A stretch of DNA of 64,000 nucleotides from contig JARVGK010000007.1 of the NCBI GenBank assembly GCA_029762535.1, forward strand, positions 1 through 64,000, written 5' to 3'. Under the pieces are notes generated by a model that worked only from the letters and a program-made list of their open reading frames with translations, did no database searches and was not told where the DNA came from. This DNA is from Thermoplasmatota archaeon (GTDB lineage Archaea > Thermoplasmatota > Penumbrarchaeia > Penumbrarchaeales > Penumbrarchaeaceae). Position 1 is the first letter of the stretch; each line of letters begins with the position of its first letter. Of this stretch, positions 1-34,853 are shown piece by piece. Made by a program: the position numbers and the translations under genes.

Positions 1-1653
1 AAGGGATCCCATCTCCGGGCGATCGATGTCGATCAGCAGGGTTCGATCCTCCGAATTGTGTATCACGTAAGGACCCGCAACATATTCCCTACCTTGCCAT
101 TCTATTTTAATATACATATTCTCAGTGGGAATATCAGGTATCTTGATTTCCGTCCACCATACGTCCTTTTTATCTTTATATAATTGAAATGATCCATTTT
201 TACCTGTAAACGAGAAACTGATATTGAATACTGGATCCGTTCCTAATATATCAGATGCATTTTTCATGGTCCAAGAAAGGCGATGGACCGAACCAGACCT
301 TAAATGTGGTGAATGAGGCAATTGAGTGAATATGAGATCCCTATGATGTACACCTTCATTCGGGACATAGAGAATATAGTGATCGGTGGTATTGAATGCT
401 TCGAATAACAGGTCCATATCCCCATCACGGTCCATATCCTCAAGGGTCATAAAACGACATCTACCGCCATAATGTGTGAATTGATTCACATTTCTCCATG
501 AAAAATCACCGTTACCGTATGAAATGTTAACTATATTGATGAACAAATCCTCTTCATTGTAAATATCGTATTTTAGAGTGACTATATCGATAAAGCCATC
601 GTTGTCTATATCCACGAATTTGAAATAGGTTATATCGGTATGTTTGAAAGGGAATGATCTCTTTCTCCATCCATTACCGTTTAAATTTTCATAGATATAT
701 GCGCCTTTGTCCGTCAACAGTCCGTAATCCAGGTCGCCATCATTGTCGATATCGCCAAGGGAAACAACTCTGCCATTCTCGCCATTAGGAAAACCTTGAG
801 AATAATCCAACCATGAACCTTTGCCGTCCGACACCCAATTATACAATTGGCTACTGCCCGGATAATTTAGAGAGCCTCCGTTCCCCATGGGGCAGCATAG
901 ATCTGGCCAACCGTCATTGTTAATGTCATGTACTGCAAATCCGCCTGGAACGTAAACCCTCTGACCCACAGACCTTGGAATATCTTTATCCCAACCATAA
1001 GAAAAATCACCATTTCCGGGATTGACTGATATGTAAACGTGATCTCGATAGCTGGAGGTCAGAATATCATAATCTCCGTCACAATCAATATCGACAATAC
1101 GAGGTGCTGAATCGTATCTATAATGTTCATGATTGAAGGAAGCCCTGAAAAACTGATCCAAATAGGTCCCATTATTATCAATAAACATATAAAAAACTTG
1201 GCTTTCATTATTACTATCATATTCAAGATAAACCAAATCCATCTCATCGTTTTCATTAATATTAATTAATCCTCTTAAAAGCATGCTGATATTTGAATCT
1301 ATCTTGGATTCAACCCATTCCTTTGAAGAATTTTGTTGAATGAAGTAGAGAGCCGGGTCCTTCTGATTGACATTCCCGTCAATACGCGTTTTGTATAATA
1401 TGTCCGGATAGCCGTTTTTATCGATATCATGAACGATCAGGGAATAGTGTGTATATCTGGACCTTGCAGGAACTTTCTCAGGATTCTTAAAAATCACTCC
1501 ATTCTTGCTGTTAATTTCGTCCTCATTAATTTCCTCTTCAGGTTCATAATCCATTGTTGCTCCATCGAGTGATGAATCGTCATACAAATAGGATAAATTC
1601 ATGATAAGCAAAGGAGAAAAAAATACTAATATCAACTTCATCTTTCCATACAT
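1..1653 (-). CDS. Secreted FG-GAP/VCBS-repeat beta-propeller protein with downstream Ig-like domain(s); 3' end runs off the window
   Basis: Manually translated, absent from the ORF track because no stop lies in the window. N-terminus MYGKMKLILVFFSPLLIM, then repeats DIDKNGYPDI, DIDCDGDYDI, DINNDGWPDL, DIDNDGDLD, DIDNDGFIDI, DMDRDGDMDL. Alternative ATG starts at 1641 and 1659. Confidence 0.85.
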   Translation of the reverse strand, partial: MYGKMKLILVFFSPLLIMNLSYLYDDSSLDGATMDYEPEEEINEDEINSKNGVIFKNPEKVPARSRYTHYSLIVHDIDKNGYPDILYKTRIDGNVNQKDPALYFIQQNSSKEWVESKIDSNISMLLRGLININENDEMDLVYLEYDSNNESQVFYMFIDNNGTYLDQFFRASFNHEHYRYDSAPRIVDIDCDGDYDILTSSYRDHVYISVNPGNGDFSYGWDKDIPRSVGQRVYVPGGFAVHDINNDGWPDLCCPMGNGGSLNYPGSSQLYNWVSDGKGSWLDYSQGFPNGENGRVVSLGDIDNDGDLDYGLLTDKGAYIYENLNGNGWRKRSFPFKHTDITYFKFVDIDNDGFIDIVTLKYDIYNEEDLFINIVNISYGNGDFSWRNVNQFTHYGGRCRFMTLEDMDRDGDMDLLFEAFNTTDHYILYVPNEGVHHRDLIFTQLPHSPHLRSGSVHRLSWTMKNASDILGTDPVFNISFSFTGKNGSFQLYKDKKDVWWTEIKIPDIPTENMYIKIEWQGREYVAGPYVIHNSEDRTLLIDIDRPEMGSL

Positions 1654-1716
1654 ATGCATACCACATACTTCATTGATTAAACTGTACATATACTTATCTG
1701 ATCAGTCTGTTATCAT

Positions 1717-3162
1717 TTAAGGTTCACTATCCTCAATATCACGATCATACCATACTGCTGTCGATGCCTCCTGCCAAACGAAATGTACATAACAAAACAT
1801 GTTCTGAGAGCTCATCTTAACGGCCACATCAACGAAATCCTCCAAAGCCTCCCCTGAACTCAAGGTTTGGGTTGTCTGGAAAGGCAACCATCCTTGTCCA
1901 TCATTACCGAGTCGTATTCTAAAATAAATATCCGAACCATCTGTCCATATGACGACCAATTTTAAGTTAAAATATGTACCCCACGAATACTTGTTGGAAT
2001 CTATAGCAACGGATCTCATGCTCAAATCACCGTTAGATGCTATGGATAAAGGTGTCGAATATGATCCTCCGGAATTCGTGCTTTGTGAATACATTACATT
2101 GCTCGATCGAACCCAGACGCAATCGACGGTAAAACCGGTACCGGTCGTTTGACCTATAACGGATATGTCCGGATAACCGATATTATCTGAGCTGCCCCAA
2201 TCCAAATCTATAGGCCCTACTTGTCTAACATATGGCCCCCTAACGCCAGACAGATCTCCGCCTTCGACTCTTACCCGATAAGGCTGAATCGGAGGTTCTT
2301 CGGGGTCTTGAACAAGAGGTAGCTTTGCTTCATAAATAATATATACAACCTCAAAAATTCCATCATAATCACTCCAGAAAATACAATCGGTTGCCGGATG
2401 CTTGTATTCCTCATTTGAAGAAGTCGGAACCGCAATATCCTGAGGATTGTTAACAAACCCTTCGGTGATAGTGTTTCCTACTTTATAACGTGAAAAAATA
2501 TTCAGTTTTACCCCATAAGTACCGTGGATGAAATAATATCTTTGCCATACCACATTCCAGTAGGTTACCCATTGTTCACCACCAGATCCACTTGTTGTAG
2601 ACACTTTTGGGTAGATATTATCTTGTTGATCACCTGGTTCCGATACAGTATAGGTTGACCCCCATACTCCTGACTGATGTAAATAGAATCTCTCTCTGGC
2701 AAGAATTTTCCATGGCCCACCAACTGCTGGCCTTTCCTGCCAGACAACAACCAATTTCAGAATTAAGTCTGTACTATCATGATAAATATGAACATCCGGA
2801 TAATCCTGATCATTGTTACTATCCAATTTCACCCATTCAAATATAGACCATGTTTCTCCGTGATCATTTGATATTGCCAATCTGATATTCCAAATGAACC
2901 TTCCTTGAAAAAATTGGTTTGTTTGCATAGAATAAACTGAAACAACATATTGTTTCCATGCGTCGTTCTGAGGATGTTTTGCGTTTTTTGGATTGGCCGC
3001 TTGTCCAAAAGGATCTTCACCAACTCCTCCACCGTTGGGAATAGCCCCTGCGATACAAGTTCTATGTGAGGCCCCATATGCGTTTACCCAATCCGTATGG
3101 ATAAGTAACATAGCTACAATCAAAACGGCTCCGAGCAAGTATATCTTGTTTCTGCCAATCAC
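1717..3162 (-). CDS. Secreted BNR/Asp-box (sialidase-like) beta-propeller protein
   Basis: Signal peptide, Asp-box-like SNDHGETWS and STNSGGSYS, repeated 'YP.v ... VVWQ' blades, GAGGTGA RBS upstream. Confidence 0.7.
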   Translation of the reverse strand: MIGRNKIYLLGAVLIVAMLLIHTDWVNAYGASHRTCIAGAIPNGGGVGEDPFGQAANPKNAKHPQNDAWKQYVVSVYSMQTNQFFQGRFIWNIRLAISNDHGETWSIFEWVKLDSNNDQDYPDVHIYHDSTDLILKLVVVWQERPAVGGPWKILARERFYLHQSGVWGSTYTVSEPGDQQDNIYPKVSTTSGSGGEQWVTYWNVVWQRYYFIHGTYGVKLNIFSRYKVGNTITEGFVNNPQDIAVPTSSNEEYKHPATDCIFWSDYDGIFEVVYIIYEAKLPLVQDPEEPPIQPYRVRVEGGDLSGVRGPYVRQVGPIDLDWGSSDNIGYPDISVIGQTTGTGFTVDCVWVRSSNVMYSQSTNSGGSYSTPLSIASNGDLSMRSVAIDSNKYSWGTYFNLKLVVIWTDGSDIYFRIRLGNDGQGWLPFQTTQTLSSGEALEDFVDVAVKMSSQNMFCYVHFVWQEASTAVWYDRDIEDSEP

Positions 3163-3453
3163 ACTTTCACCTCAATCTTTCTTGTTCGACCGGATCTTAG
3201 TTGCCGGGATCGAACACATCCCCCGGGATGCACGCATTTCTTGGTTATCGGCTCCAGTCACGGGCCCATAACTTCCAATATATATATATATCGGTAATAG
3301 TTTGACAATAATGGACTTTTTTTAACCTTCACACGCCGGGGGATCCCCTCCGGGGGGATCTGACCCTTGGGGGACACTGAAGAAGGCGGGGGAGGAGGGG
3401 ATCCCCCTTTTATGGGGACAAGATTATCAAAGGGGGATCGGTTTCTACTAACC

Positions 3454-4317
3454 ATGCCCTCGATCCGAAAGATCCAAAAGGTGATGAAGAGCAGGCCCAC
3501 TCTCGAAGGTGCAGGGGTTCACCTTCGAAGGGCCTTCGGGTTCCACGATGAAAATGCGTTCGATCCGTTCCTTCTTCTGGACGATTTCCGCTCTGACGAT
3601 CCCCGGAAATACCTTCCGGGGTTTCCCTGGCACCCCCACCGCGGGATCGAGACGATAACCTACATGCTATACGGATCCGCAGAGCACGGGGACAGCCTCG
3701 GCAACAAAGGGGTCATCGGTCCCGGCGACGTCCAGTGGATGACCGCGGGATCGGGCATCATCCATCAGGAGATGCCCAAGGGAGATCCCGAAGGAAGGAT
3801 GGGGGGATTCCAGCTCTGGGCGAACCTGCCAGCAAGGATGAAGATGATGGATCCCCGATACAGGGATATCGGTTCCGATTCGATCCCGGAGGTCGAACTC
3901 TACGGAACGAAGATCAAGGTGGTCGCAGGCAGGGTCGGGGATGTCAGGGGTCCGGTCACGGATATAGTGATAGACCCGGAATACCTGGACGTTCGGATGC
4001 CCCCCAATTCCACCTTCGATCACCCTAATCCGCCCGGACATACCGTCCTGGCATACTTATACAAGGGCAAAGCCCTTTTCGAAGAGGACATAACGGTCCC
4101 GTCGGAGAACGTGATCCTCTTCGGCGACGGAGCTTCCGTCCGTTTCAGGACAGGGGATCTCCCTGCCAGTTTCCTTCTGATATCGGGCAAACCCCTCAAA
4201 GAGCCAGTTGCCTGGGGAGGGCCCATCGTCATGAACACACAAGCCGAGCTGGAACAGGCCTTCACAGAACTGCGGTCGGGGAAGTTCATAAGATCGGGCA
4301 ATGACCCGAACCTCTAA
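3454..4317 (+). CDS. Pirin family protein
   Basis: DPFLLLD, GFPWHPHRGIETITY, QWMTAGSGIIHQE, FQLWANLP, GGPIVMNT. Start moved from 3367 to ATG 3454. Confidence 0.95.
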   Translation: MPSIRKIQKVMKSRPTLEGAGVHLRRAFGFHDENAFDPFLLLDDFRSDDPRKYLPGFPWHPHRGIETITYMLYGSAEHGDSLGNKGVIGPGDVQWMTAGSGIIHQEMPKGDPEGRMGGFQLWANLPARMKMMDPRYRDIGSDSIPEVELYGTKIKVVAGRVGDVRGPVTDIVIDPEYLDVRMPPNSTFDHPNPPGHTVLAYLYKGKALFEEDITVPSENVILFGDGASVRFRTGDLPASFLLISGKPLKEPVAWGGPIVMNTQAELEQAFTELRSGKFIRSGNDPNL

Positions 4318-7300
4318 GGGATCACGCCCTGGAGGCTGAACCCGCTCCAACCGACGTTTCCCGCAAGGTCCACTGCATACACCGTCAGAACGAAGGTCGT
4401 CGGAACGGCGAACATGGGCATCTGTATGTTGCCTGTCCACTCATACTGGTCTATGGCCGCGAGGTCCACCCGACCCACCTCCTCTCCCTCGAAGTACTCG
4501 AGGACCGCGTACACCGAGGATATCTCACCTGCTATCTCGCTGAGCATCACCGTGATGTGCACGTCATGGCCCGAGATCACCTCCATGTTCGGATATGGGG
4601 TTATGACCATTATATGGGGGATGATCGTATCGATCGCCACCATGCTCCAAACCGTTCGGCTGTTACCCAGGTCGTCGCGCACGATAGCGCGAACGTTCGC
4701 CCAGCCCTCCGCCAATCCCTGCTCCGCAGGATCGATCTCCAGGACGAACTCGTAGGCGGTCCCGTTGGGTATCCGGTCACTAACCGCATACTGGAACTTG
4801 GTGGCGTTCCCATCGGTGATCTCGAACTCCACCCTGACCGCGTTGGGGTCCGAAGTGGATGCCACTATCCTGAACGGTCCGTTGTAGTAGGCCGGATCCC
4901 TATCCGGATCGATCCTGAGAGAAAGGTCCGGGGCGGTCCTGTCCACCTCGATCCACAGCTCATGAACATCCCCGGTCCGTCCGTAGGCGTCCCTTATGTT
5001 AACGTAGAAGACAATATCGCCCTGGGGCATCTCGGATATGTTCAAGGGAACCTCGAACCTGCCAGGGTCCAGGGTCGGGACGACAGCACCGGTGTAAGGA
5101 TGGGGCGCTCCCGGATCTATGCGGAATTGGATGTCGAAGAAGGAATCCACTATCCATTCGCCTTCCGATCCGCTAAGGTTCGCCCTCAGGGACATATTGG
5201 TATCGAACCTGTGCCTTGACCCGTTCAACGGGGCGATGATCTCCAGATCAGGTAGTGCCGGGTCCCATAGAATATCGTCCCTGAACCAGGGCCAATCGCC
5301 GAATAGCGGGTAGTTGACCCTCCACTCTAAATAGGTGTGTTCCTCCGTGGCGAGATCCCCTATCGGGAAAGCCTCGCCGAAGGACCAGTTGTAGTGGACC
5401 GACCCGTAGGGCCCTCCAAGCCTGAATCCGGCATGGCCGTAACCGGTGTTCAGCCCTTCGGGAACATCGTAGCCGGGAATGGTGACGTTCATACCCGGTA
5501 TGACCACTAAGAAGGAACCCGTATCGTTCTCGAACCTGAGCGGGGCCGGGTACCACATTATCTCAGGCCTATCAAAGCCCCTCCAGATGGTGAAATTGCT
5601 GTAAGGGGTCCAGGGCCCGAAGACGTCGTCCTTCTCCCATCTGAGCCTCCACCACCATGTACCGTTCCCGATATCCTCCGGGAACGGCCACTCCGTTACG
5701 TTCCATCCAAGCTCCTGATCCCAGAACGGATGGTCGAATGTGGAGGTATTGTCTATCTGCAACCTCAGCCTCATCTCCCTGGTGAAGTTCTCGAGGACCC
5801 ACCAGAAATAATCTGGATCCGGATCCCACATTATATGATCGTCGTTAATAGGCCTCGTCGGAGTGATGACCGGATTTGGCCTGATCGTCATGTTGAAGAA
5901 CTCATAAGGATAGTTCACGGTCCCGTCGAGCAGGGTCTTGATCACTATGACCTCCTTCATGCCGGGCGGTATCACAAAGGTGCCGTTCTGCCCCTTGCCG
6001 AGAGTATGGTTCTCATAGGATCGGCTCCCGTCCGGTTTCACCCCGATGATGGTGATCCCCCATCTGGAATTGGGCATCCTGGGATCGAACTCAATGATGC
6101 CGCCCGAACCGTTCATGACGAATCTGTTCACCCTCGACCCATAGCGTTCCACCCACTCGCTCGCGCTCGATGGCGCGCCGGTGAATCCGACCTCTCTATC
6201 GGGTTTGACCGGCCCGAAATCCGTCCCTGTCCGATACTGGGGGAATCGATTCTCCACCCTGTAAAGCATGAACTCTCGTATGAGGTCCTCCAGTTTCTGA
6301 CCCGTCGCCTCTTCAATGGCCCCTACCCCTATCACGTTGGTCCCGGAACCGCCATAGCTGGTATTGTCGTAGATCTTCTTGATCACGTCCTTGCCGAACT
6401 TGTCGAAGAGGAACTTCCAGAACAGGAAGGCTATCTCGTAGTATTCCCATATGTTCGCATAGTAGGTCCTGTTGTTCGCACCGTGCCAGTCGGTGAATAT
6501 GTTGATATGGCTTTTGGAGGTGTAATTGATTATGTTCAGGTTCCCTGAACTCTGCAGCTCCTTTTCGACCTCTACCCAGGTCATATTGTAGTTCTTCATG
6601 GTGGAATACCTTCCCACGAACTCGGCCATTCCCTCCTCGAGGAACCTGTGGGCGAGCGGACCGATGTGCCATGCCCCGTTCTGACGCTGCTTCCACTGGA
6701 AGCTGTGGGTGACCTCGTGCTCCACCAGCTTCTTGTTCGTTACCTTGTTCGTGCCAAGGTCCACCTGTATGGACCCGTCGGGTTGGCACACCCCTGAATA
6801 TGAACCGTTCCCGCTGGCCGTGACCCGTATTATAGGCCTCCCGGAGGGATCCGTCCCCGAGGATGCTGGATCCCCGAAACCCATCTCCTTGAGGAGCTTG
6901 TAGGTGAAGTCGATGTATTCGGTGAGGTTGTCCATCATGTTCTGGCCCACGGGATGGGCGGCAGGGACCTGGAAGGAGACGTTCACGTCCCTAGGGGGGG
7001 TCAATGCTTCGAAGATATCATACTCTTCATCATACCCGGCCGTGAAAGGCTCCGTCCTCCCGTTGACTATGTGGATCACCCAGTCGCCGGGGAGAGGTAC
7101 CTCGACGATGTTGTTCTCCCCCGGGGAGGGAGGACCCGCCGTCCAGTAGGATACGGGTCCGACATTGGGACCTTGTAGCGACAGAGAGCTGCCGATGGGG
7201 GCAAGGGTAAGATAATCTCCTTTCGTCCATCCGAGCCTCGGTGTGTCCCCGTTCCCCTCCCCCCATGCTATGAGATCGACGATGTTATCATCAGCGTCGA

Positions 7301-7973
7301 AAAGCGCAAGCTCGTCGCCTCCCGCATCGAGGAATGCTCCGGCCAAACCGAGATAGACCGTGGCCAGCCCATCGGAACAATCATGATCGCCTGTTCCGCT
7401 CCCGGCGTGGACGACTATATGATCGAAGCCGTCGATCCCTGTGATCTCGGGCAGCTCGATGAGGTCCTCATCGAACGTCGTCACCGTCCATCCGTCGAGG
7501 CTGCCCTGGGCCGGTCCTTCCACGTATATCTCGAACCAGTCCTCATGGGGCATGACTTCGGATATCCTCGCTCTGATCGAATTCTGGGATACCGTATCCT
7601 TCCCGATGTTGTCGAAGGGATCGGTATCGTCCTCGACATCATCATCGCCCCCCCTCGTGACGGTGTAAACGATCGCTGCGCCTATTGCCGCCAGTATCAG
7701 AATGCCTATGATACCGATGACGAGTATTCCCTTGTAGCTCTTCTTTTTTGGCCCCCTGTCGACCCCCTCGTCCTCCCATGACTCCTCTTCCTCATCTTCC
7801 GGTTCATCTTCGTCATCGTAGAGGTCATCTTCGTCCGGCTCCTCCTCTTCGTCATAGAGCTCATCATCATCCAGGACATCGTCCATGTCGGGATCTTCCT
7901 CCTCGGGGAGCATGTCCTCTTCCTCGTCATACAATTCATCATCGATACGGACCTTCCGCTTCTCCTTCACCAT
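4314..7973 (-). CDS. Membrane-anchored metallopeptidase: acidic N-tail, TM, lamin-tail-like domain, HEXXH gluzincin-like domain, Ig-like domains
   Basis: TM GILVIGIIGILILAAIGAAIVY; LTD-like ISEVMP..WFEIY..GDELALFD..PSPGENN; HEVTH followed by FLEEGMAEF; C-terminal D..GN Ig repeats. Confidence 0.75.
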   Translation of the reverse strand: MVKEKRKVRIDDELYDEEEDMLPEEEDPDMDDVLDDDELYDEEEEPDEDDLYDDEDEPEDEEEESWEDEGVDRGPKKKSYKGILVIGIIGILILAAIGAAIVYTVTRGGDDDVEDDTDPFDNIGKDTVSQNSIRARISEVMPHEDWFEIYVEGPAQGSLDGWTVTTFDEDLIELPEITGIDGFDHIVVHAGSGTGDHDCSDGLATVYLGLAGAFLDAGGDELALFDADDNIVDLIAWGEGNGDTPRLGWTKGDYLTLAPIGSSLSLQGPNVGPVSYWTAGPPSPGENNIVEVPLPGDWVIHIVNGRTEPFTAGYDEEYDIFEALTPPRDVNVSFQVPAAHPVGQNMMDNLTEYIDFTYKLLKEMGFGDPASSGTDPSGRPIIRVTASGNGSYSGVCQPDGSIQVDLGTNKVTNKKLVEHEVTHSFQWKQRQNGAWHIGPLAHRFLEEGMAEFVGRYSTMKNYNMTWVEVEKELQSSGNLNIINYTSKSHINIFTDWHGANNRTYYANIWEYYEIAFLFWKFLFDKFGKDVIKKIYDNTSYGGSGTNVIGVGAIEEATGQKLEDLIREFMLYRVENRFPQYRTGTDFGPVKPDREVGFTGAPSSASEWVERYGSRVNRFVMNGSGGIIEFDPRMPNSRWGITIIGVKPDGSRSYENHTLGKGQNGTFVIPPGMKEVIVIKTLLDGTVNYPYEFFNMTIRPNPVITPTRPINDDHIMWDPDPDYFWWVLENFTREMRLRLQIDNTSTFDHPFWDQELGWNVTEWPFPEDIGNGTWWWRLRWEKDDVFGPWTPYSNFTIWRGFDRPEIMWYPAPLRFENDTGSFLVVIPGMNVTIPGYDVPEGLNTGYGHAGFRLGGPYGSVHYNWSFGEAFPIGDLATEEHTYLEWRVNYPLFGDWPWFRDDILWDPALPDLEIIAPLNGSRHRFDTNMSLRANLSGSEGEWIVDSFFDIQFRIDPGAPHPYTGAVVPTLDPGRFEVPLNISEMPQGDIVFYVNIRDAYGRTGDVHELWIEVDRTAPDLSLRIDPDRDPAYYNGPFRIVASTSDPNAVRVEFEITDGNATKFQYAVSDRIPNGTAYEFVLEIDPAEQGLAEGWANVRAIVRDDLGNSRTVWSMVAIDTIIPHIMVITPYPNMEVISGHDVHITVMLSEIAGEISSVYAVLEYFEGEEVGRVDLAAIDQYEWTGNIQMPMFAVPTTFVLTVYAVDLAGNVGWSGFSLQGVIP

Positions 7974-8072: not shown

Positions 8073-8381
8073 TCACGAGATCGACCTGCCCTTCGGGAAT
8101 ATGATCCCGAGGACGAACAGTATCCCCAGCGCGAAGAAGGCGATATATGTCATGGCCTTTCCTCCGGCAGGATAGTCCCAGTACCTCGTTATCCAGTATA
8201 TGAGACCGAGTATCATCAGGAATAGGATCCCCGATATCGCATAGCGGGTCGTGGTCTGGATATCATGCGGCCATGCCTTCCAACCTGAGGGGTACTTGAA
8301 GCCAAGGTAGAGCGAGAGTATTATAACTATAGCAGCGGCAACGAGAGTGGCTTGCAGTAGCCACAAGGTCAGTCCTCCCAT
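8073..8381 (-). CDS. Small 3-TM membrane protein
   Basis: Three hydrophobic segments; start overlaps the AAA gene end by 13 bp. Confidence 0.75.
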   Translation of the reverse strand: MGGLTLWLLQATLVAAAIVIILSLYLGFKYPSGWKAWPHDIQTTTRYAISGILFLMILGLIYWITRYWDYPAGGKAMTYIAFFALGILFVLGIIFPKGRSIS

Positions 8382-11300
8382 TTGACATCGGTCGGCTCGA
8401 GATCCTCCTTCTCACCGGGAGCGGCTCTGGACCTCGCGTTGTTCCCGCCCTTGATCTTCCTCTCGTACTCTCTCCTAAGCTTGTCGTACATCTTCAGGGT
8501 CTTGGTCGTCACGGAGGGCTTTATCTCCCCCAGGACGGCTTCGATATCGCCCATTGTTATCGGATGGGGCTTCTTGTTCTGGAGCGCCTTTTCGAGCCCG
8601 AGGGCGGAGGCCTCGGCCACCAGATTCGCCAGGTCGGCTCCGGAGAAGCCCTCGGTCCTCTTCGCGAGGTCCTCGATGGCTATGTCCTTGGAGACGTACT
8701 TGTTTTGAAGGTGTATCCTCAGGATCTCCTTTCTGGATGCCGCATCAGGAGGCGGGATGTATATGACCTTGTCGAACCTTCCGGGCCTCATAAGGGCCGG
8801 GTCCACAAGATCGGGCATGTTCGTCGTCGCTACGATGATGACACCTTCCGCACCCTCCATTCCGTCCATCTCGGAGAGCATGATGGAGAGGACCCTCGGG
8901 GTCACGTCATCTGTCGAGTAGAAGTCCCTTCTCTTGGCTATGGAATCGATCTCGTCCAGGAAGAGTATGCAGGGCGACCTGGCCTTGGCCTCTTTGAACA
9001 GAGACGCGATCAGGTTCTCCGACTCCCCGTACCATTTGGACATCACATCGGAGCATTTTATCCCGATCATATCCACGTTGAGATCGGATGCCACTGCCCT
9101 GAGCATCAGTGTTTTTCCGCATCCGGGGGGGCCGAAAAGAAGTATGCCTTTTGAGGGCTTGACCCCGTACTTCGTTGCCATGTCGGGCTCCAGGAGAGGC
9201 ACCATTATCGCGTTCTTGACCTCACGCTTTACATCCTCCAGACCGCCGATGTCCTTGAAAGTGGCCTTCCGGAAATTCACCATCTCGGAGATCTTCATGC
9301 CTACATCCGAGCTCTTGATCTCCTCCACCCCGAAATACATCGGAAGGGAGGCCTCTCCAAGGTCCCTGATGACAAAGGCCAGAAGGGATGCGGGGAAGCA
9401 CGTGAGCAGGGCGAAGACGGTGAAAGCGTTGAACTCCACCGTCGAGAGCACATACGACGCTACCGCCACCAGGAACAGCAGCGCGCCAGGGGATGCCCTC
9501 AGGGCCCATCCTTTGACGTCGATCTTGCCCTCCCTGCCTTTGATGTGATGGTTGAACAAATAGTATGAGAGCACCATCGCCCCGGCCCAGCTGAGAAGTC
9601 CCAGGAGGGGTGTCAGATCACCCATGGTCTCCGAAAGTACCCTGGATATCGTGTTCATGTCAGTTGTCGTGATCGATGAGACGGCGTTCGCGAGGTCCAC
9701 CGGGCTCCACATCGAGGGTACGGGCCTCGAAAAAGTGACGAAGCTCAGCTTTCCGCCCTGGGATGAGAGCAGCGATATCATGTCGAAATTCCCCGATGGC
9801 GCGATGACGAGAAGGAATATCCCGGCGGTCACGAGCACAAGGGATCCCATCAGAAGCGATATCGTAAGCGCCACAGCGATGGGCACGGCGAAACCGATCC
9901 CGAAACCCGAGGCGAAAACCGTGAGAAGCGTGAGGTAGCCGTAGCGCCAGTCGAAGAAGCCCCCGACCATGGCCACGAGGGACAGCATCAGGAACACCCA
10001 GCCGAACTCCCTTGACTGATAGGCCGTTGATGCGGTAACGAGGACCGATATGATCAGAAGCGAGAGGTACGGGAACCGGATCGCTAGAGCGGTGAGCACT
10101 GCGCAGAACAGTATCACCGCCCACCAGGGGTAGAAAGGTGCCCATACGAGTCCCAGGAACGAAAGGACCAGGAAAGCCCCCGCTCTGAGGACCATGTCCT
10201 TCTTGCCCTCGTCCTTCAATACCCGGTCGTACCACTTGTGAACTTCATCTTTATCCTCGGCCCTTCGCCTTCTTTTCTTGTCCTCGGCGAGCTTCCTGTA
10301 ATAATCCTTTATACGGCCGGTCCCTACATAGGCCAGGGCCAGTAAGGATAATAGCATAAGCAGTCCCACCGCATCCTTCCATGTGGGGCCGGACCGATGT
10401 TCGAAAGGAACGGAGTAGGTCTTCTCGTTGATCTCCAAGAGGAACGAGAACGAACCGTCAGGACGCGGGACGGAAACGGTCCACGTATAGGTCTCGCCCA
10501 TGTACTCGGCTTCTATGCGGTAGGTCCCTTGATAGACGGAGGTGTTCGTGTAGGCTATACCGGCCTTGGCCTCGGTCTCGTGTATATAGGTCTCGTTGGA
10601 GAAGACGACCTTAAGGGTCTCGGACCCGTCGGGCGGACCGTTGCGGGTCATGTCCTTGAACTGGACGAATATGTATCCGGTATATACCGGTTGAGCGGGC
10701 GGAAGGCGGGGATACTCATAGGTCTGGGTCGCGGATACGACCTTGTTCATGTACGTATCGTACGCCTCCACCCTGAAGCTTATCCTCGATCCGGGCGGAT
10801 AGAATATCAGCTCCGCGGAAAGCGTGCCGTTCTCCTCCCCCTGTCCGAAGAAGGTCACCCCATCGACTGGATCCTGACCCGGGATCGCAACGGTATAGAG
10901 GAGATCGCCTCTGCTTATGGTGACGAGAGGGTCCCTTGATGATATGTTCAGCTGGACGTTCTGATAGTTCCTGGGATCCTTTGGCCCCCAATCCAGTGCC
11001 ACGTTGAGATCGAAATCGGAACCCGAGAACGACCCGTTCTGAAGGACCGTATAAGAATACTGTGGAGATGTCAGAGGTGTGTTCTTCTCGTCGTAGGCGA
11101 CGATCCTGTAGTTTATCGTGGAACCGCCGGGATGTCCCGGGATGGACCCCTCCATCGAGGTCTGGTTGATCCTGGTCAGTGAATATCCACCCTCGGGAGA
11201 TAATCGACCCTGGTAGCTCCATGTGAAGCGGACATCGGCGGCGTTTATGAACTGTCCGTTCTTGGAAGTGATAGTAATGTGGAACGGCTCCATATCGAAA

Positions 11301-11464
11301 GGAGCCCTGTCCGTTACATGGTCTGGCGATCTTACGATCTCTATCTCGGATTCGAAGACGTTGCCCTGCCATTCCGCGTTGAGAACGCTCGGGAACGCTA
11401 TGAGCAATAGAGCGATGGCCAGGACCGTCATGTGGAATTTTTTCGTCGTTCCGATATACATCAA
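8369..11464 (-). CDS. Polytopic membrane AAA+ ATPase (CDC48/VAT-like single AAA module) with exported N-terminal Ig-like domains
   Basis: Signal peptide, ~330-aa beta-rich ectodomain, ~10-12 hydrophobic helices, then FKDIGGL, Walker A GPPGCGKT, pore loop KWYG, Walker B ILFLDEID and SRH TTNMPDLVDPALMRPGRFD. Confidence 0.9.
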   Translation of the reverse strand: MMYIGTTKKFHMTVLAIALLLIAFPSVLNAEWQGNVFESEIEIVRSPDHVTDRAPFDMEPFHITITSKNGQFINAADVRFTWSYQGRLSPEGGYSLTRINQTSMEGSIPGHPGGSTINYRIVAYDEKNTPLTSPQYSYTVLQNGSFSGSDFDLNVALDWGPKDPRNYQNVQLNISSRDPLVTISRGDLLYTVAIPGQDPVDGVTFFGQGEENGTLSAELIFYPPGSRISFRVEAYDTYMNKVVSATQTYEYPRLPPAQPVYTGYIFVQFKDMTRNGPPDGSETLKVVFSNETYIHETEAKAGIAYTNTSVYQGTYRIEAEYMGETYTWTVSVPRPDGSFSFLLEINEKTYSVPFEHRSGPTWKDAVGLLMLLSLLALAYVGTGRIKDYYRKLAEDKKRRRRAEDKDEVHKWYDRVLKDEGKKDMVLRAGAFLVLSFLGLVWAPFYPWWAVILFCAVLTALAIRFPYLSLLIISVLVTASTAYQSREFGWVFLMLSLVAMVGGFFDWRYGYLTLLTVFASGFGIGFAVPIAVALTISLLMGSLVLVTAGIFLLVIAPSGNFDMISLLSSQGGKLSFVTFSRPVPSMWSPVDLANAVSSITTTDMNTISRVLSETMGDLTPLLGLLSWAGAMVLSYYLFNHHIKGREGKIDVKGWALRASPGALLFLVAVASYVLSTVEFNAFTVFALLTCFPASLLAFVIRDLGEASLPMYFGVEEIKSSDVGMKISEMVNFRKATFKDIGGLEDVKREVKNAIMVPLLEPDMATKYGVKPSKGILLFGPPGCGKTLMLRAVASDLNVDMIGIKCSDVMSKWYGESENLIASLFKEAKARSPCILFLDEIDSIAKRRDFYSTDDVTPRVLSIMLSEMDGMEGAEGVIIVATTNMPDLVDPALMRPGRFDKVIYIPPPDAASRKEILRIHLQNKYVSKDIAIEDLAKRTEGFSGADLANLVAEASALGLEKALQNKKPHPITMGDIEAVLGEIKPSVTTKTLKMYDKLRREYERKIKGGNNARSRAAPGEKEDLEPTDVKWED

Positions 11465-11467
11465 CTT

Positions 11468-12829
11468 TCACGCTCCTACGCTTACCCTCTGTTTCTCTAT
11501 CAATTTCTTCTTGATCTTGACCCTCTCAGCGATCCCCAGTGCGGCCAGTCCCGCCAATAGATACTCCACTGGGACCGAGGCCGCCTGGCCTACCGTGACC
11601 GGAGTGATGTTAGGGGCTGCCGTAAGGACAGGGGCGACGTTGATCGATGGGGCCACTACCGGGACCGATGGCGGCGGGGGAACCGGAGCGAGCGGGGCAG
11701 GGGGCGGCGGGGTCGGAGGCGGGGGAAGGGGGGGAGGAAGGCTCCTGATCACCGTGATGTATATGTCCGGAAGGTCCTCGACCTTCCTGTCGCCTCTCCA
11801 ATCGGTATACTCCAGATATGATCCGGACGCGAAAAGCCTTATGCGGCCCTCTCCGACAGCGGATGATATATTGAACGTCGCGGACCAGTTCTCCCCTATC
11901 ATCAGATCCCCAACGTTCCACAGAAGCACCCATCCGTCCTCCCCTTCATCAGAGGTGAAATTCTCGATGAGGTCGGATGATCCTTCGATATAATCGATGT
12001 CCGGGTCCATCCTGGCCCTTAGGGTGCAGTTGGTGCCTGCAGTATGATCATAGAATTGGTCCGAGATCCTGAGATATATATCTATGAGTTCGGACGCCTC
12101 CCTGGCTAGGAAATAATCGCCTCCGGTGTGATTTGCCATCCACCACAGGAGGGATTCGTCCACCATGGGCCCCAGGCCCACGGTGTATACCTTGATCCCG
12201 TTATCGACAAGGGCGTCCATCTGGGACAGGGTGACGTTCTTCTCCGGAGGGTCAGGGGTGCCGTCGGTGAAGAGTATGATCACCTTCTGGTTGCCATCGA
12301 CCCCGTGGGCGATGAGCTCGTCCGTGGCCGATTGGATCCCGGCCTGGAAGTTCGTCTGACCCTGGGGCTCGGTCATGGCCAGGGCATCGAGGTCCGCATG
12401 GACCTGAGCATAAGCGGAGGTCAGATGATTGAATGAAGTGGCTATTGAATCGAACTTTATTACGCATGCTCTGTCGTACGGGGCGATCATATTATCGACG
12501 TATCGATGTGTGGCGAGGATCCTCAGCACCTGGGGATCGTAGGTCCCTAAAGAACCGGAGTGGTCCATAAGGAAGACCACATCCTGGGGAGCAAGCGTGA
12601 TCCCTTTGGTCCCAACTCCGGAGACGACAATGGTCGCCGAGGTTTGATTAGGCTCGTTGCCCGAGTTCGATCTCCATATCGTCTCATGCGTGAAAGAACC
12701 CCGAGATCCCAGCTCGCCCCCCCCGGCGTAGGCCGTGGAGGCGTCCGCCCCTCTACAAAAGAGGATGATCATAATTAGGGCGAACGCTGCAAGGACCGGG
12801 GCCCAACCCCATATAGGTTCCCTCCGCAT
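11468..12829 (-). CDS. Exported vWA-domain protein with Pro-rich linker and C-terminal hydrophobic/basic tail
   Basis: Signal peptide, MIDAS DVVFLMDHSGS, GQTNF, ILFTDG, VYTVGLG, poly-Pro linker. Start moved to MRREPIW behind a GGTGA RBS. Confidence 0.9.
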   Translation of the reverse strand: MRREPIWGWAPVLAAFALIMIILFCRGADASTAYAGGGELGSRGSFTHETIWRSNSGNEPNQTSATIVVSGVGTKGITLAPQDVVFLMDHSGSLGTYDPQVLRILATHRYVDNMIAPYDRACVIKFDSIATSFNHLTSAYAQVHADLDALAMTEPQGQTNFQAGIQSATDELIAHGVDGNQKVIILFTDGTPDPPEKNVTLSQMDALVDNGIKVYTVGLGPMVDESLLWWMANHTGGDYFLAREASELIDIYLRISDQFYDHTAGTNCTLRARMDPDIDYIEGSSDLIENFTSDEGEDGWVLLWNVGDLMIGENWSATFNISSAVGEGRIRLFASGSYLEYTDWRGDRKVEDLPDIYITVIRSLPPPLPPPPTPPPPAPLAPVPPPPSVPVVAPSINVAPVLTAAPNITPVTVGQAASVPVEYLLAGLAALGIAERVKIKKKLIEKQRVSVGA

Positions 12830-12886
12830 CGAACCATCACCCCACATGATACATAATCCATGTTTCGGTCATATTCCCAGAGGCGA

Positions 12887-15800
12887 TCACTTCGTCTCTT
12901 CGGCCGGCTCCCAGTTGTCGGCATCCGTGGCCTTCGCCTTGGAGAATGGATTGCGGAAGGGCGGTCTCTTCTTTTCCGGACCTTCATCGGGTCCCCCTTC
13001 CTTCTTCTTCATGCCCTCTCCCTTCATCCATTTGGTCAGCACTCCCGTATAGGCCAGGACCGCTATGATGATTATCAGGAGGAGGATGAGCAAGAACCAG
13101 ATGACCGGGAGAGCGTCAACGAACCTCTCGACGAAGGTCGGCTTGCTCTCCACTTTCTTAACGTCTATCAGACCGGATACAGAGTTCTCGTTGCCGAGCT
13201 TGTCAACGGATCGGATCTGGAATATGTGGGACCCACCTCCGGAGGTGGGCCAGTACAATATGTAAGTATCCACATTCGATGTGTTGGAATCCGGGGTCAT
13301 CTCCCTCCACCCGAGCGAATCTATGTTTATCATGACGGATCCGACGCCGGATGGATCGAGGACATGGGCCACGAATATGACGGATTCACCCTCTTTTACG
13401 ACCCCCTCCCTAACTTCCATATTCCTTTCGATCCAGTAGTAATCGAGTTCGATCGCCGGTCCCGTATTGTCTATCCGGATCCCGTATGTGGTAGCGGCAT
13501 CGTTCCCCGCCCTATCGGTAGCCGTGAGCTTGAGCTCGTGGTCCCCGTCGGCGAGTATCCTCGTGTTTAATATGTACTCGTAGTACAGGCCGCCCTCCCC
13601 TCTGTAGATCTCGAAACCGCTGGCCTCGTCTATGGCAAGGGTCACCTGTCTTACGCCTATGGAATCATAGACGTAGAACCTCAAAGTGGTGGTGCCAGAG
13701 AGCACCTCACCGGGAGTTATCGTCGCCTGGGATATGATCGGGTCCCCGTTATCGACGGTCACCTCAACGTTGAAGGAGGTGCGGTGTCCGGCCTGGTCCT
13801 CGGTCATGACCGTTACCGTATGGTATCCATCGGTGACCTTGGTGGTGTCCCACTTCGTGGATACATCGTACCACGTCGTTCCATCTATGGCATACCTGAC
13901 CATGCCGGGGAACTTGTCCATGGTCTGGGCCTTGATCACGAACTCTTCTCCGCTGACCAGCTGGTCCTTTACAGGCGATTCGATCGTCAACATCGGATAG
14001 GTGTTGTCCACTTTGAAGTCGACCACAGGCGTCTGAACGGTGTTGAGGGCCACATCCACTATGGTCGCCTGTACTGTGTAGACCCCATCCTCCAGGAGCC
14101 TTGTGTCGAGCAGGAACTCGTAGTATCCCGTCTGGGCGTTGTATGAGAGCGGTTTCTCGCTACCGGCGATGTCGATGGTGAGGGACCTTATGCCGACCTT
14201 GTCGTATGCGGATATCCTGAATATGTAGGTCCCCTCGATGAACTCGTTGTCGAACGGGGTGATCATGCTTATCTCGGGATCGTTGTTGTCCACGAACACG
14301 GTCATGCCCTGCATGGTGACATGGCCGGCAAGGTCGGTCGCCCGTATCTGTACCTGGTGCGCTCCATCCTCGTAGAGAAGCGTGTTCCAGCCGATCGAGA
14401 CTGGCTGCCATGACGCTCCGTCGATGTTGTAATCAGTGCCTTTCTTGAACACATCGGCGTTTATCACATCGAAGTAGAACAGCCCTGATATCACCTGCCC
14501 TTCCTTCGGGGAATTGATGGTGATGGTCGGGGCCCTGTTGTCAACGTTGAAGCTGATCGGGCCGTAAGTGTAGCTCTTGCCCGTGCGGTCGTATGCGATC
14601 GCGGTCACGTTCCTCACACCGTCCTCACCGGAACCCCACGTTATCGTGTTCGATGTGTACTCATAATAGCCGGTCACGGAGTTGTAGGGAACCCTCGCCT
14701 CGAGATTATAGACCTTTATGATGACGTGATCGATCCCCACTATGTCGAACGCCGACACCTTTATCGTTATGGTTCCCTCCACGAACTCCCCGGGGACAGG
14801 GGAGTTGATCGTACAGGTCGGATCGAGATTATCGAAGAACACGTCGAAGGACAGTATCGCCTCCTTACCGGACTTATCGGTCGCCCTCACTCTGATGATG
14901 TGTCTCCCATCGCCGAAAGTAGAGGTATCCAGGTCCTGTGCCGCTGAGATCCAGCCAGTGCTGTCTATCTGATACTGCACCAGGTCAAGGAATCTGTCCT
15001 CGGCGGTGATGTTCAGCTCAATGATCCCTTCGAGGATATCGCCATCAAGGAGGTTCATGACCGAAAGTGTGGGCACATGATTGTCCAGGTTGAAACTGTG
15101 GGGGCCTATGAGCGTTACCTTTCCGGATAGGTCCGTCACTGTGATGTTCATCGCATATGTGCCATCGTCGATCAGTCTGGTGTCGGTCGAATACTCGTAG
15201 TAACCGTTGGCCAGATTGTATTTCATGTCGAGAGTGGAGCCGAACACGTCCACTATCACCGATCCGACCCCTACCGCATCGGACGCTACTACCCTGAAGG
15301 TCATGACCCCCATGATGAACTGATCAGCGACCGGGTCCGATATCGCACCGTAGGGATGGGTGTTGTCTATAATGACATCCGAGACGGTCGTTGTGATATG
15401 GCCGATCCTGTCAACGGCCCTGAAAGTGATCACGTGCTTCCCGTCACCGAAGATCGAGGTGTTCAGTGGGGTCGTGATGGGCACCCAACCTGAACCGTCA
15501 ACGTCGTATTCGACGCGATCCAGGAATTGATCGGTCACACTGACGTTCATATTCTCGATGCCCTGTAGATAAGCGTTGTCCAGGGGGTGGTTGATCCTGA
15601 GCACGGGCGCATTGTTGTCCACCTGGAAGTCTATAATGGGAGACTGGCTTATCTTTCCGCTCCGGTCATATGCTATGGCATAACATGAATAATTGCCGTC
15701 CGGCTGTATCGATGTGTCCGAATTGAACTCATAATATCCCGAGGCGGAGGAGAATATCGCTGAGAAATTGTTGTAAAAGACGTTGATCTCCACCCTCTCG

Positions 15801-18800
15801 ATGCCGACAGCATCCGTCGCTGAAAGTCGGAACCTGTATGCACTTTTGATGAATTCGTTCGGTACGGGACCGTTCACCGCGCATACCGGAGCGTTGTTGT
15901 CAACTATCAGCGTCATCGTCTGTGTCGTGGAATGTCCCGCCTGGTCCCTGGCCTGGAACATGATCACATGGCTCCCGTCAAGGATCGTGGTCGTATCCCA
16001 CGAGGAGTTGATCGGGATCCAACCGCCTCCATCGATGGAATACCTAACGTCCTGGAGGAAGGCATCGCTCACGGAGAGGTTGAAGGTCACGACACCCTCG
16101 ACATAGTTGCCGTTCTGAAGGCCGTGAACGGTCAATTCCGGAGCGTTGTTGTCCACCTTGAAGCTGATGTTCGATGAATTGGTCCATTTCCCCGATAGAT
16201 CGTAGGACGTCGCCATGACCGAGTACACTCCGTCATCGACCGTCAGCGTGTTGAGGGCATACTCGAAATAACCGGTCTGCCTGTTTATGGATGTCTGGAC
16301 CTCGTCAGAGAACACGTGCAGCAGGACCCTGTCCACTCCCACGGTATCGATCGACGAGACCTTGAAGGTATGTACACCCTCGAGGAAAGCTCCCTCGAAG
16401 GGGGAGACCATGGAACAGGTCGGATTCGTGTTGTCCACGATGAAGGTCAGGACCTGCTCCGTCAGATGGGACATGTTGTCTATGGCACTTACCGTTAGAG
16501 TATGCGTTCCGTCCGTCAGCCTGGACGTATTGAGTATGCTGTACCAATTCGGTTCGGAACCTGAGAAGTTCTGCCAACCTGTCGAGTCGATCCGATATTT
16601 TACGGAGTTGAGGAATATATCCGCGGAATTTACGGATATGGTATAGTCCCCGCCGATGATCTCGTTATCGTTCGGTTTCAGTATTCCCAGTGATGGAGCG
16701 TTGTTGTCTATATAGAACGTCACTGTGTCGCTCGTTCGGGAAAGATTGACCTTGTCGTATGCTGTAGCGTAAACCGTATACGTACCGTCGGGTTTGGTGT
16801 TCGTCGTCACAGTATACTCGTACGAGGAGGTGATCGGATTGTAAGGGAGCGTGATCACCGTCCCGAATATGTGAATATCCACGTGGTCCACAGCGACCGT
16901 ATCCGTGGAGACCACCCTGAAGGTGTAAGTGCCCTCGATGTACTGGCCGTCGATAGGCGAGTTGATGTCGCAGGTTGGCATGTTATTGTCCACGAATATG
17001 GTGATCGATGTCTCGCCAGTCATACCTGCAGTGTCCTTGGCGTCCACCGACAGTGTGTGAGAACCGTCGGTTATCTGGGTCGTGTCATAGGTGCCGGTCC
17101 ACGTGTTACCGTTCCGGGTCATGGGCGTCCATGCGTTCGTATCCACCCTGAACCTTACCGCTATGACATAGGAGGTGGTGTTCACCGAGATCTGCATCGT
17201 CTTGCCGGTGACGTAGGACCTATCCAGAGGAGTGTTTATTATGGGGTTGGGGGCGGAGTTCGAAAGAGTGAAGTTCACGGGGCCTAGCGTTGTCAGTCCC
17301 GCTCCGTAATCCTCTGCGGTGATATTGATGGTGCAGGCTCCATCGACGTATGTGAAGGTGTTGACGCTCCTCTCCCAGAACTGATTGGCGCTGTTGTAGA
17401 ACATGTTAAGGGTGCCGGCATTTATCATATTGCCTCCGAAGGTCATCTTGATCGACCTTACGTCCGAGGGTGTACCTGCGCTGACCCTGAAAGTATAGAC
17501 GCCCGAGACCAGCTCGTTGGATGTGGGATTTATTATATCTATCGATATCGGCTCCTTGACCCGAAGCGTTACGTTCGCGTATCTGACCAGTGTTCCGTCG
17601 CTGCCCCTTATACTGAGGTTGTATAGACCTACCGGGGTCGATGTGAGGGCCTTGACAGTCAGCTCAGAACTCTGGCTCGATACCGATATGACGGAGGGGT
17701 TGAACGTGAAGTTGAACATGTTGTTGTTGCTGTCAACGCTGGCCGACAAAGTGACGTTGTTGTTGTAGTTGTTTATGGTATCCATATCCACGCTGTATTT
17801 CACGTTCGAACCGGGGGAGAGTATCCTCAAGGCAGGCTCCGCCGTGAGGAAATAATCGGGGTTCGTCGAGACCCTCAATACGACACCAACGCTCCTTTCG
17901 ACTCCATTGTAACCGGTATCGTTGGCGTAAACCTCAAGAAAATAAGTGCCCGCGGATATCGATGAGGACGTGGTGATGTTCAGGTTCACCTTCTCTGTTC
18001 CTACCCCGCCAGCATTGACCGACAAACGGCTCAGGCTTGCCGATGCTCCGCTCGGGGTGCTGATGTTCGTACCTCCGGAATTCTTCCACCTGTAATGCAG
18101 GTCGATGTCCTTTGTTATCCCCAATGAGTTTACATCTATCTCATATGATGCGTTCATACCGGGGGCTATGAGCCTGGATACGGGGTTGGCCGAAAGCGCC
18201 ATATCGGACGTTATCAGCAGCGTATAGTTGTTCGAGCTCGAATATCCTGAGGTGGGATTGTCATCCACGACGCAAAGACCGTAGTAACCGGATGACTCGG
18301 GCTCGTATGAGAAGGAAAGGTCCCCTCCGTTCGTTGCTGAATCCTTTACCAGTGCATCCCCGGCGTTCCCTGAACCCCTGAAAAGATACATGCTCAGGTC
18401 CTGACCGCTCGCGACCGAATAGATGTCGAACTCGTAATAACCTCCAGCATCCAGGTACACGTCGTACATGTTCACGAGAGGGTAATCCCCCCTGAGCGTC
18501 CCTGAATAAGTGGTCGTTCCATGATACTCGAAAAGTGAGTATCTCCTATCACCTATCTTCAGATGGCCGTCCTGATCGGGGTCGGATCCGTAGAGATCGT
18601 CCGCGACCGTATGATAGTCGGATTCTATCCTGACACCCGAGTCCCAGTTGGAGCCGGTGAACTTAACGACCTTGGCGTAAAGATAGCTGCCAGTGTATGT
18701 GTGGCCGTCCACAACCACAAGGTCTATCTTGTTGCTGCCTTCGGTGGAGGATGCTACTCGATTCTCCATGTCGTAGTCCGAATACATGAACAGATCGAAG

Positions 18801-27378: not shown

Positions 27379-27457
27379 GTCTTTACCTCCATCTTTGCTC
27401 TTGCAGTTCGGACGATCCTTGCGATCGTCCCTGGACCATAATTCCAGCATCTGCTCG

Positions 27458-34695: not shown

Positions 34696-34853
34696 GGCGG
34701 ACCACCGGGAACAGGACGGGGGCATATGATACCGCTTATTAAAAACCGTTGAAGGATATAACGCATTTGGTATGGCTCCCAACACTCGTAGGGGGAAAAG
34801 GGGGAGAAACCCTAAAATCATCATGGACACATCCCCCTAGAGGAAGTCCCCGA

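What the first reader, a model, noticed from the sequence alone, without database searches (positions are those of the whole stretch)
8369..11464. Unusual architecture: signal peptide - Ig-like ectodomains - ~10-12 TM helices - intact single CDC48-like AAA module, with no protease domain
Seen: Walker A, Walker B, the aromatic pore loop (KWYG) and the arginine-finger SRH are all intact. The ectodomain has two similar repeats (IPGHPGGSTINYRIVAYD and IFYPPGSRISFRVEAYD). The C-terminus DVKWED lacks the HbYX motif that archaeal CDC48/PAN use to dock on the 20S proteasome. Known: FtsH has 1-2 TMs plus an M41 protease, and Msp1/Bcs1 have one TM. Inference: a hexamer would carry about 60 or more TM helices, enough to form a channel or a receptor-gated unfoldase. 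I do not recognise this architecture as a named family.
Basis: partly seen in the sequence, partly recalled or inferred. Interest (0 to 1): 0.82.

Follow-up and report, generated by a model that had tools for sequence, protein, structure and literature searches.

The report
Single-ring membrane AAA surface machine
This uncultured sediment archaeon encodes a real, class-wide conserved ATP-driven protein-pulling motor built into the membrane by 11 helices and carrying its own surface domain. It is almost always encoded with three surface or membrane partners, and it most likely pulls on a surface protein from inside the cell; I found no study of it.

Summary
Observation confirmed and not a chimera: the membrane block is in 30 of 37 genomes of the class (EX4484-6/Ca. 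Penumbrarchaeia), and in all 12 that are at least 90% complete. Layout: signal peptide, three beta-sandwich domains, 11 TM helices, cytoplasmic AAA.

(1) The AAA is not a CDC48 ring. It is D1 of a membrane-bound tandem-AAA clade that includes Sulfolobales MBA-type and Micrarchaeota proteins (99/95 support; grouping with CDC48-D2 rejected, p=0.0003). D2 lacks pore aromatics in Thermoplasmatota and is intact, decayed, split off or lost among relatives.
(2) The ectodomain is a fused neighbouring gene.
(4) The gene sits in a four-gene operon: giant Ig protein, VWA protein, this AAA, 3-TM protein. The VWA protein has a polyproline stalk, a weak anchor and a fixed-length conserved tail.

Best model (about 50%, inferred): D1 threads that tail and extracts or retracts the VWA protein. 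The scan found double-ring relatives earlier on other DNA. I found no paper on this architecture.

The parts
8369..11464 (-). Membrane AAA gene, 1031 aa
11375..11464 (-). Signal peptide (aa 1-30): basic n-region, hydrophobic core, L-N-A before a conserved Trp32
   Evidence: sequence; (no SignalP available)
11039..11374 (-). Ectodomain repeat 1 (aa 31-142), Ig-like beta-sandwich
10706..11038 (-). Ectodomain repeat 2 (aa 143-253), homologous to repeat 1
10391..10705 (-). Ectodomain 3 (aa 254-358), CnaB/transthyretin-like sandwich
10211..10375 (-). TM0 plus basic cytoplasmic linker (aa 364-418); probably the anchor and tail of the once separate ectodomain gene
9347..10210 (-). Ten-helix membrane block (aa 419-706), N-in and C-in; long outside loop about aa 557-616
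9344..9952 (-). Last six helices (aa 505-707): S-component/MreD-like arrangement, no AxxxA motif in helix 1
8453..9268 (-). AAA module = D1 ring (aa 733-1004); Walker A 9110-9133, pore loop 9026-9037, Walker B 8951-8968, SRH 8771-8797
8369..8452 (-). Short variable tail where D2 follows in relatives; no HbYX; the final W-E-D codons carry the Shine-Dalgarno GGGAGG of the next gene
11468..12847 (-). VWA partner, 459 aa: N-terminal signal, VWA with intact MIDAS, beta-rich domain, 55-aa proline-rich stalk, weak TM anchor, conserved tail
11471..11572 (-). Anchor and tail of the VWA protein: 34 residues from PxEY to the end in 15 of 16 homologues measured, ending Q-K/R-V-x-V-G-x; candidate AAA grip
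8073..8381 (-). Small 3-TM protein (about 97-102 aa, probable start TTG at 8366), conserved KYP...WP motif
12887..19168 (-). Giant Ig-repeat surface protein (about 2090 aa; Big_7/Big_13 repeats, strong C-terminal TM), first gene of the operon

Best explanation
The protein is the motor subunit of a four-part cell-envelope machine. Shown here: the topology (ectodomain out, AAA in), intact D1 motifs, conserved operon, ectodomain fusion and D2 loss. Inferred: six copies form a D1 ring under the membrane with its entry face towards the membrane, as in FtsH and Msp1. The membrane blocks surround that entry and, with the 3-TM protein and the fused Ig ectodomain as fixed subunits, dock a single-pass client (the S-component fold does this in MreD-MreC). 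The aromatic pore loops grip the fixed-length cytoplasmic tail of the co-encoded VWA protein and pull it inward. Its weak anchor slips, so the VWA head on its proline stalk is retracted or the whole protein is extracted. The likely purpose is to remodel, release or turn over a surface adhesion structure that includes the giant Ig protein. Any degradation would be done by a separate protease.
For: D1 pore loop 1 is aromatic (KWYG, once RWYG) in every Thermoplasmatota member, while D2 lacks pore aromatics, so D1 is the threading ring and D2 can be lost. All four operon products are membrane or surface proteins and no cytoplasmic target is co-encoded. The VWA tail is conserved at protein level with free third codon positions, has a fixed length, and follows an anchor much weaker than TM0 or the giant protein's anchor (best 19-residue hydropathy 1.1-1.9 against 1.9-2.9 and 2.8-3.6). 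Only this one protein of the genome ends in V-x-V-G-small. Lutacidiplasmatales loci, where no VWA gene lies next to the motor, have two Ig glycoproteins that both end in R-I/V-T-L, and three of their small proteins end in V-G-A. The ectodomain is a separate gene in L068 (hhalign 99.3%, E 2e-20), so it is a subunit, not a client. MreD uses the S-component pocket to bind a single-pass protein (10.1101/2024.10.08.617240).
Confidence: 0.5

Rival explanations
1. General membrane-protein quality-control extractor (Msp1, Cdc48-ERAD or FtsH-like dislocase without protease). It pulls any damaged membrane protein for LonB or the proteasome; the operon partners are sensors or subunits, and the tail is a docking or activating peptide.
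For: The clade persists without obvious partner genes in Micrarchaeota and Sulfolobales. The genome has no M41 domain but has a Lon protease domain. Single copy and present in all 12 near-complete class genomes, as expected of a housekeeping gene.
Against: Patchy in the phylum (37 real hits in 401 genomes). Tight coupling to specific adhesin-like genes. No HbYX in any member inspected.
Confidence: 0.2
2. Receptor-gated unfoldase: the S-component-like pocket or the ectodomain binds an outside ligand and switches the AAA, which remodels a cytoplasmic target, as in 5TMR sensor kinases.
For: The S-component fold is used by receptors whose helix 6 runs into the output domain (PMC11109136). The atlas rows include 7TM-7TMR_HD, LytTR-linked and MreD clusters at TM 0.32-0.46 by query. 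There is a large ectodomain.
Against: No cytoplasmic or regulatory gene is conserved in the operon. The link from helix 6 to the AAA is poorly ordered in the model (pLDDT <50 at model 304-314 and 320-325). Few conserved polar residues lie in the S-like half.
Confidence: 0.12
3. Polypeptide importer or channel: the VWA and Ig proteins capture outside polypeptides and the ring winches them through a pore formed by about 66 helices.
For: The threading direction of such a ring is membrane to cytoplasm (established for FtsH and Msp1; my knowledge). The class was enriched on protein and is predicted to degrade organic matter (PMC12220078). Six 11-helix bundles would enclose a lumen of roughly 3-4 nm (my geometric estimate).
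Against: There is no conserved polar stripe or pore-like motif. The Sulfolobales relatives work with a single helix. The S-component fold is a compact six-helix binding fold, not a known pore former (my knowledge).
Confidence: 0.1
4. Assembly chimera or gene-calling artefact.
Against: 13 other full-length homologues at 49-66% identity from independent assemblies; same domain order in about 30 further loci; conserved linker between the TM block and the AAA (70% identity).
Confidence: 0.01

Closest known systems
MBA (membrane-bound AAA) group of Sulfolobales (Serek-Heuberger et al. 2009, pmid 19143614, not held; listed as a separate archaeal AAA cluster in PMC3493965)
   Same: Same AAA clade for D1 (99/95) and, in two-ring relatives, for D2 (97/95). 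Same D1 pore loop, and a TM helix about 40 residues before the AAA. No HbYX in the four loci.
   Different: MBA-type loci (L075, L077, L078, L081) have one TM, no ectodomain, two rings and no such operon. Here there are 11 TMs, an ectodomain and one ring. Calling those loci MBA rests on their architecture and my memory of the paper, not on accessions.
Cdc48 / VAT / p97
   Same: Best sequence hits of the AAA module (VAT D2, E 1e-77); same classical AAA motifs.
   Different: No N-domain, one ring, no HbYX; TIGR01243 score 272 against cut-off 803; grouping with CDC48-D2 rejected (p-AU 0.00026). The genome has its own CDC48 ending in Y-Y-G and two PANs.
Msp1/ATAD1, Bcs1 and FtsH
   Same: Membrane-anchored single-ring AAA facing the membrane; probable functional analogy (pulling proteins at a membrane).
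   Different: They have one or two TMs; FtsH carries an M41 protease (absent here). FtsH model 236 against cut-off 600. These families were not in the tree.
S-component fold: ECF S-components, MreD, 5TMR receptors
   Different: Four extra helices and TM0 in front, no AxxxA motif, no EcfT (CbiQ) found in the genome. An AAA fusion is not mentioned in PMC11109136 (0 hits for 'AAA').
MoxR-DUF58-VWA (Bat-type) envelope operons; apicomplexan TRAP adhesins (analogy from memory)
   Same: An AAA+ ATPase encoded with VWA and Ig membrane proteins. TRAP shares the layout VWA, proline-rich stalk, TM, motor-engaging tail.
   Different: The ATPase here is a classical pore-loop AAA, not MoxR, and the VWA is outside the cell (8 sequons). 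No homology to TRAP was tested.

Membership tests
MBA group | AAA domains form one clade with the Sulfolobales membrane-bound AAA proteins, apart from Cdc48 | tested here: met
   D1 clade 99/95; reference loci identified by architecture, not by accession
MBA group | Two nucleotide-binding domains | tested here: not met
   one AAA in this protein and its family; two in relatives
MBA group | Only a ~50-residue N-terminal extension with one TM helix | tested here: not met
   730-residue N-terminal part with 11 TMs
MBA group | Membrane-bound ring with ATPase activity | not testable with these tools
   needs expression and EM
Cdc48/VAT/p97 | Double-psi-barrel N-domain | tested here: not met
   no CDC48_N Pfam hit; ectodomain and TM block in its place
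Cdc48/VAT/p97 | Tandem D1-D2 and TIGR01243 cut-off | tested here: not met
   272 against 802.65 bits
Cdc48/VAT/p97 | AAA nests in CDC48 D1 or D2 | tested here: not met
   (AU test run for D2 only)
Proteasome regulators (PAN, CDC48, AMA) | C-terminal HbYX | tested here: not met
   ends W-E-D; definition in PMC3493965
FtsH | M41 protease domain | tested here: not met
Classical AAA unfoldase | Walker A and B, sensor 1, SRH arginine fingers, aromatic pore loop | tested here: met
S-component fold | Six-helix core with S-component arrangement | tested here: inconclusive
ECF S-component (transporter) | AxxxA in helix 1 and an EcfT/EcfA module | tested here: not met
   helix 1 consensus has bulky residues; no CbiQ hit in a 93% complete genome
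Intramembrane protease | Invariant catalytic Ser/His, Asp or Glu/His set in the TM block | tested here: not met
   the only near-invariant polar residue across 65 sequences is Gln482
Msp1/Bcs1 | Phylogenetic placement with Msp1 or Bcs1 | not tested
   no reference sequences were available by id

The most novel reading that the evidence does not exclude
A new kind of archaeal mechanical surface machine: a membrane-embedded AAA winch that uses an S-component-like dock to grip the tail of a stalked VWA adhesin and so retracts, tensions or releases surface adhesion, or pulls captured polypeptides into the cell.
Probability: 0.3. Interest if true: 0.9.

Novelty: new variant of a known kind. Interest (0 to 1): 0.7.

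Why it matters
Archaea lack FtsH (my knowledge; none found in this genome), and how they pull on or remove membrane and surface proteins is largely open. The Sulfolobales MBA proteins have had no known function since 2009, as far as I know and could find. This family extends that clade to Thermoplasmatota and Micrarchaeota, and in this lineage supplies named partners and a short candidate recognition peptide, so the question can be tested directly. It also records a natural series from two rings to one (intact, decayed, split, lost D2) and would be an unreported pairing of the S-component fold with a AAA motor. The single-ring, ectodomain-fused form is the simplest version for structure work.

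Tried and rejected
1. Complex prediction of TM+AAA, small protein and VWA anchor-tail gave no verdict (score 0.00); it is not used as evidence either way.
3. The whole-protein AlphaFold model was poor in the TM and AAA parts (pLDDT 57) and was used only for the ectodomain.
5. A search for shorter homologues gave only two fragments on short contigs.
6. I tested whether the VWA tail is only a ribosome-binding-site imprint and rejected it: third positions vary and the SD mostly lies after the stop. The same test shows that the AAA's own W-E ending is probably such an imprint.
7. Archaeosortase sorting signal for the VWA anchor: no NCBIfam CTERM hit.
8. The 1219-aa gene at 4314-7973 is not syntenic (0 of 36 loci) and is excluded from the system.
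9. Four combined literature searches for this architecture returned nothing; the library lacks most subscription papers, including the MBA paper.

Full report
1. Observation. The stretch 8369-11464 is one minus-strand ORF of 1031 aa. Pfam finds only the AAA core (774-904) and lid (927-975), and no NCBIfam model reaches its cut-off. The N-terminal 690 residues alone retrieve 13 other proteins of 1030-1080 aa at 49-66% identity, all with the AAA domain, so the fusion is not an assembly chimera.

2. Organism and range. A same-family locus is titled EX4484-6, the class named Ca. Penumbrarchaeia in PMC12220078. A profile of the membrane block hits 30 of 37 class genomes and 12 of 12 that are at least 90% complete, essentially once per genome. 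In a phylum sample it also hits one other family in 6 of 9 genomes and one further genome. That family is probably Lutacidiplasmatales, because L072 carries that name and has the same architecture. More distant members lie in Micrarchaeota. I found none in bacteria in these searches.

4. The AAA is a D1 ring. VAT D2 is the best sequence hit. In a maximum-likelihood tree, however, the domain groups with D1 of Thermoplasmatota relatives (100/99), and these group with D1 of Micrarchaeota proteins and of ~605-aa single-TM Sulfolobales-type proteins (99/95). The D2 domains of the same proteins form their own clade (97/95). Forcing the group together with CDC48 D2 is rejected (p-AU 0.00026). The Sulfolobales proteins fit my memory of the MBA proteins (pmid 19143614; the group is listed in PMC3493965), and their one helix sits where helix 10 sits here. 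D2 is intact in L042, L043 and L045-L048, decayed in L031 and L039, split into the next gene in L033 and L034, and absent in this family. The window protein ends just after the helix that leads to D2 in relatives. D1 keeps the aromatic pore loop in all Thermoplasmatota members, and their D2 has none. No stray D2 gene was found in the genome; its other classical AAAs are one CDC48 and two PANs.

5. The operon. The gene abuts a VWA gene upstream (3 bp gap) and a 3-TM gene downstream, in nearly all class loci. A ~2100-aa Ig-repeat gene precedes the VWA gene in most loci long enough to show it. In L068 the ectodomain is a separate 371-aa gene directly in front of a two-ring motor, and Lutacidiplasmatales-type loci have two Ig glycoprotein genes there. 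So the ectodomain is a fused subunit. The VWA protein has an intact MIDAS, a 50-56-residue stalk of 38-52% proline, a marginal anchor and exactly 34 residues from PxEY to the end in 15 of 16 cases. Its terminal motif is conserved at protein level and unique in this genome. In contrast, the AAA's own W-E ending is always coded so as to give GGAGG about 8-10 nt before the small gene's start, so it is probably a ribosome-binding-site imprint and not a protein motif.

6. Mechanism. Established for the class of enzyme (my knowledge): classical AAA rings thread polypeptide from the N-terminal face, which here faces the membrane. Inferred: the client is a membrane protein with a cytoplasmic tail, since the operon offers no soluble target. 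The VWA protein has the features expected of such a client (free tail of fixed length, weak anchor, extended stalk). MreD shows that an S-component pocket can bind a single-pass protein (10.1101/2024.10.08.617240). I put tail-threading with retraction or extraction of the VWA protein at 50%, a general extractor at 20%, a ligand-gated unfoldase at 12% and an importer or channel at 10%. Exceptions (L039 without the tail motif; Micrarchaeota and Sulfolobales without obvious partners) limit confidence.

7. Comparison and verdict. It works like Msp1, FtsH or Cdc48 at membranes but fails the membership tests for Cdc48, FtsH, PAN and ECF transporters. It belongs to the MBA-type clade by phylogeny but not by architecture. 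I found no paper on it. Earlier notes of this scan describe two-ring relatives in other genomes with a similar reading. The MBA link, the S-component resemblance, the D2-loss series and the fixed-length tail were worked out here. Class: new variant of a known kind; interest 0.7.

Noticed in passing
L042:3483-3923, L043:6363-6797, L066:11720-12160: In three Lutacidiplasmatales-type loci without an adjacent VWA gene, the small membrane protein has an extra N-terminal helix and a Gly-rich tail ending in V-G-A, like the VWA tail; the motif seems to have moved between operon members.
   Followed up: partly
L043, L045-L047, L066, L073, L074, genes upstream of the AAA gene: Both Ig glycoprotein paralogues end in a TM plus R-I/V-T-L tail.
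   Followed up: partly
L033:3680-4786, L034:6432-7523: D2 is split off as a separate overlapping gene with decayed motifs.
   Followed up: partly
P0029, P0030, P0032, P0038: D1 Walker B has Asp in place of the catalytic Glu in several ectodomain-less relatives.
   Followed up: no
L068:5584-6885: The upstream partner keeps the polyproline stalk, anchor and a similar tail but has no MIDAS motif and aligns poorly to the VWA domain, so the head domain seems exchangeable.
   Followed up: partly
L140:4292-8506: The Micrarchaeota member has a ~500-aa insertion inside D1, possibly an intein.
   Followed up: no
window 4314-7973 (-): 1219-aa membrane-anchored protein with an acidic N-terminus, a lamin-tail domain and an HExxH-type peptidase motif; it follows the operon but is not syntenic in relatives.
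   Followed up: partly
window 1-3300: GC falls to 39% in the first 2 kb, against about 56% elsewhere; a 481-aa secreted protein (1717-3162) has no Pfam family. Possibly an acquired segment.
   Followed up: no
genome C91:84281-86113 and C16:20510-21787: Two PAN-like ATPases whose C-termini end in M-F-A and M-F-G; the genome also has a CDC48 ending in Y-Y-G.
   Followed up: partly
window 23626-27450, 30757-34830, 48773-51349: A PKD/cadherin surface protein ending in a zinc-ribbon-like tail, a C25 gingipain-type peptidase with Ig and PKD domains, and a wHTH-NB-ARC-TPR STAND protein.
   Followed up: no
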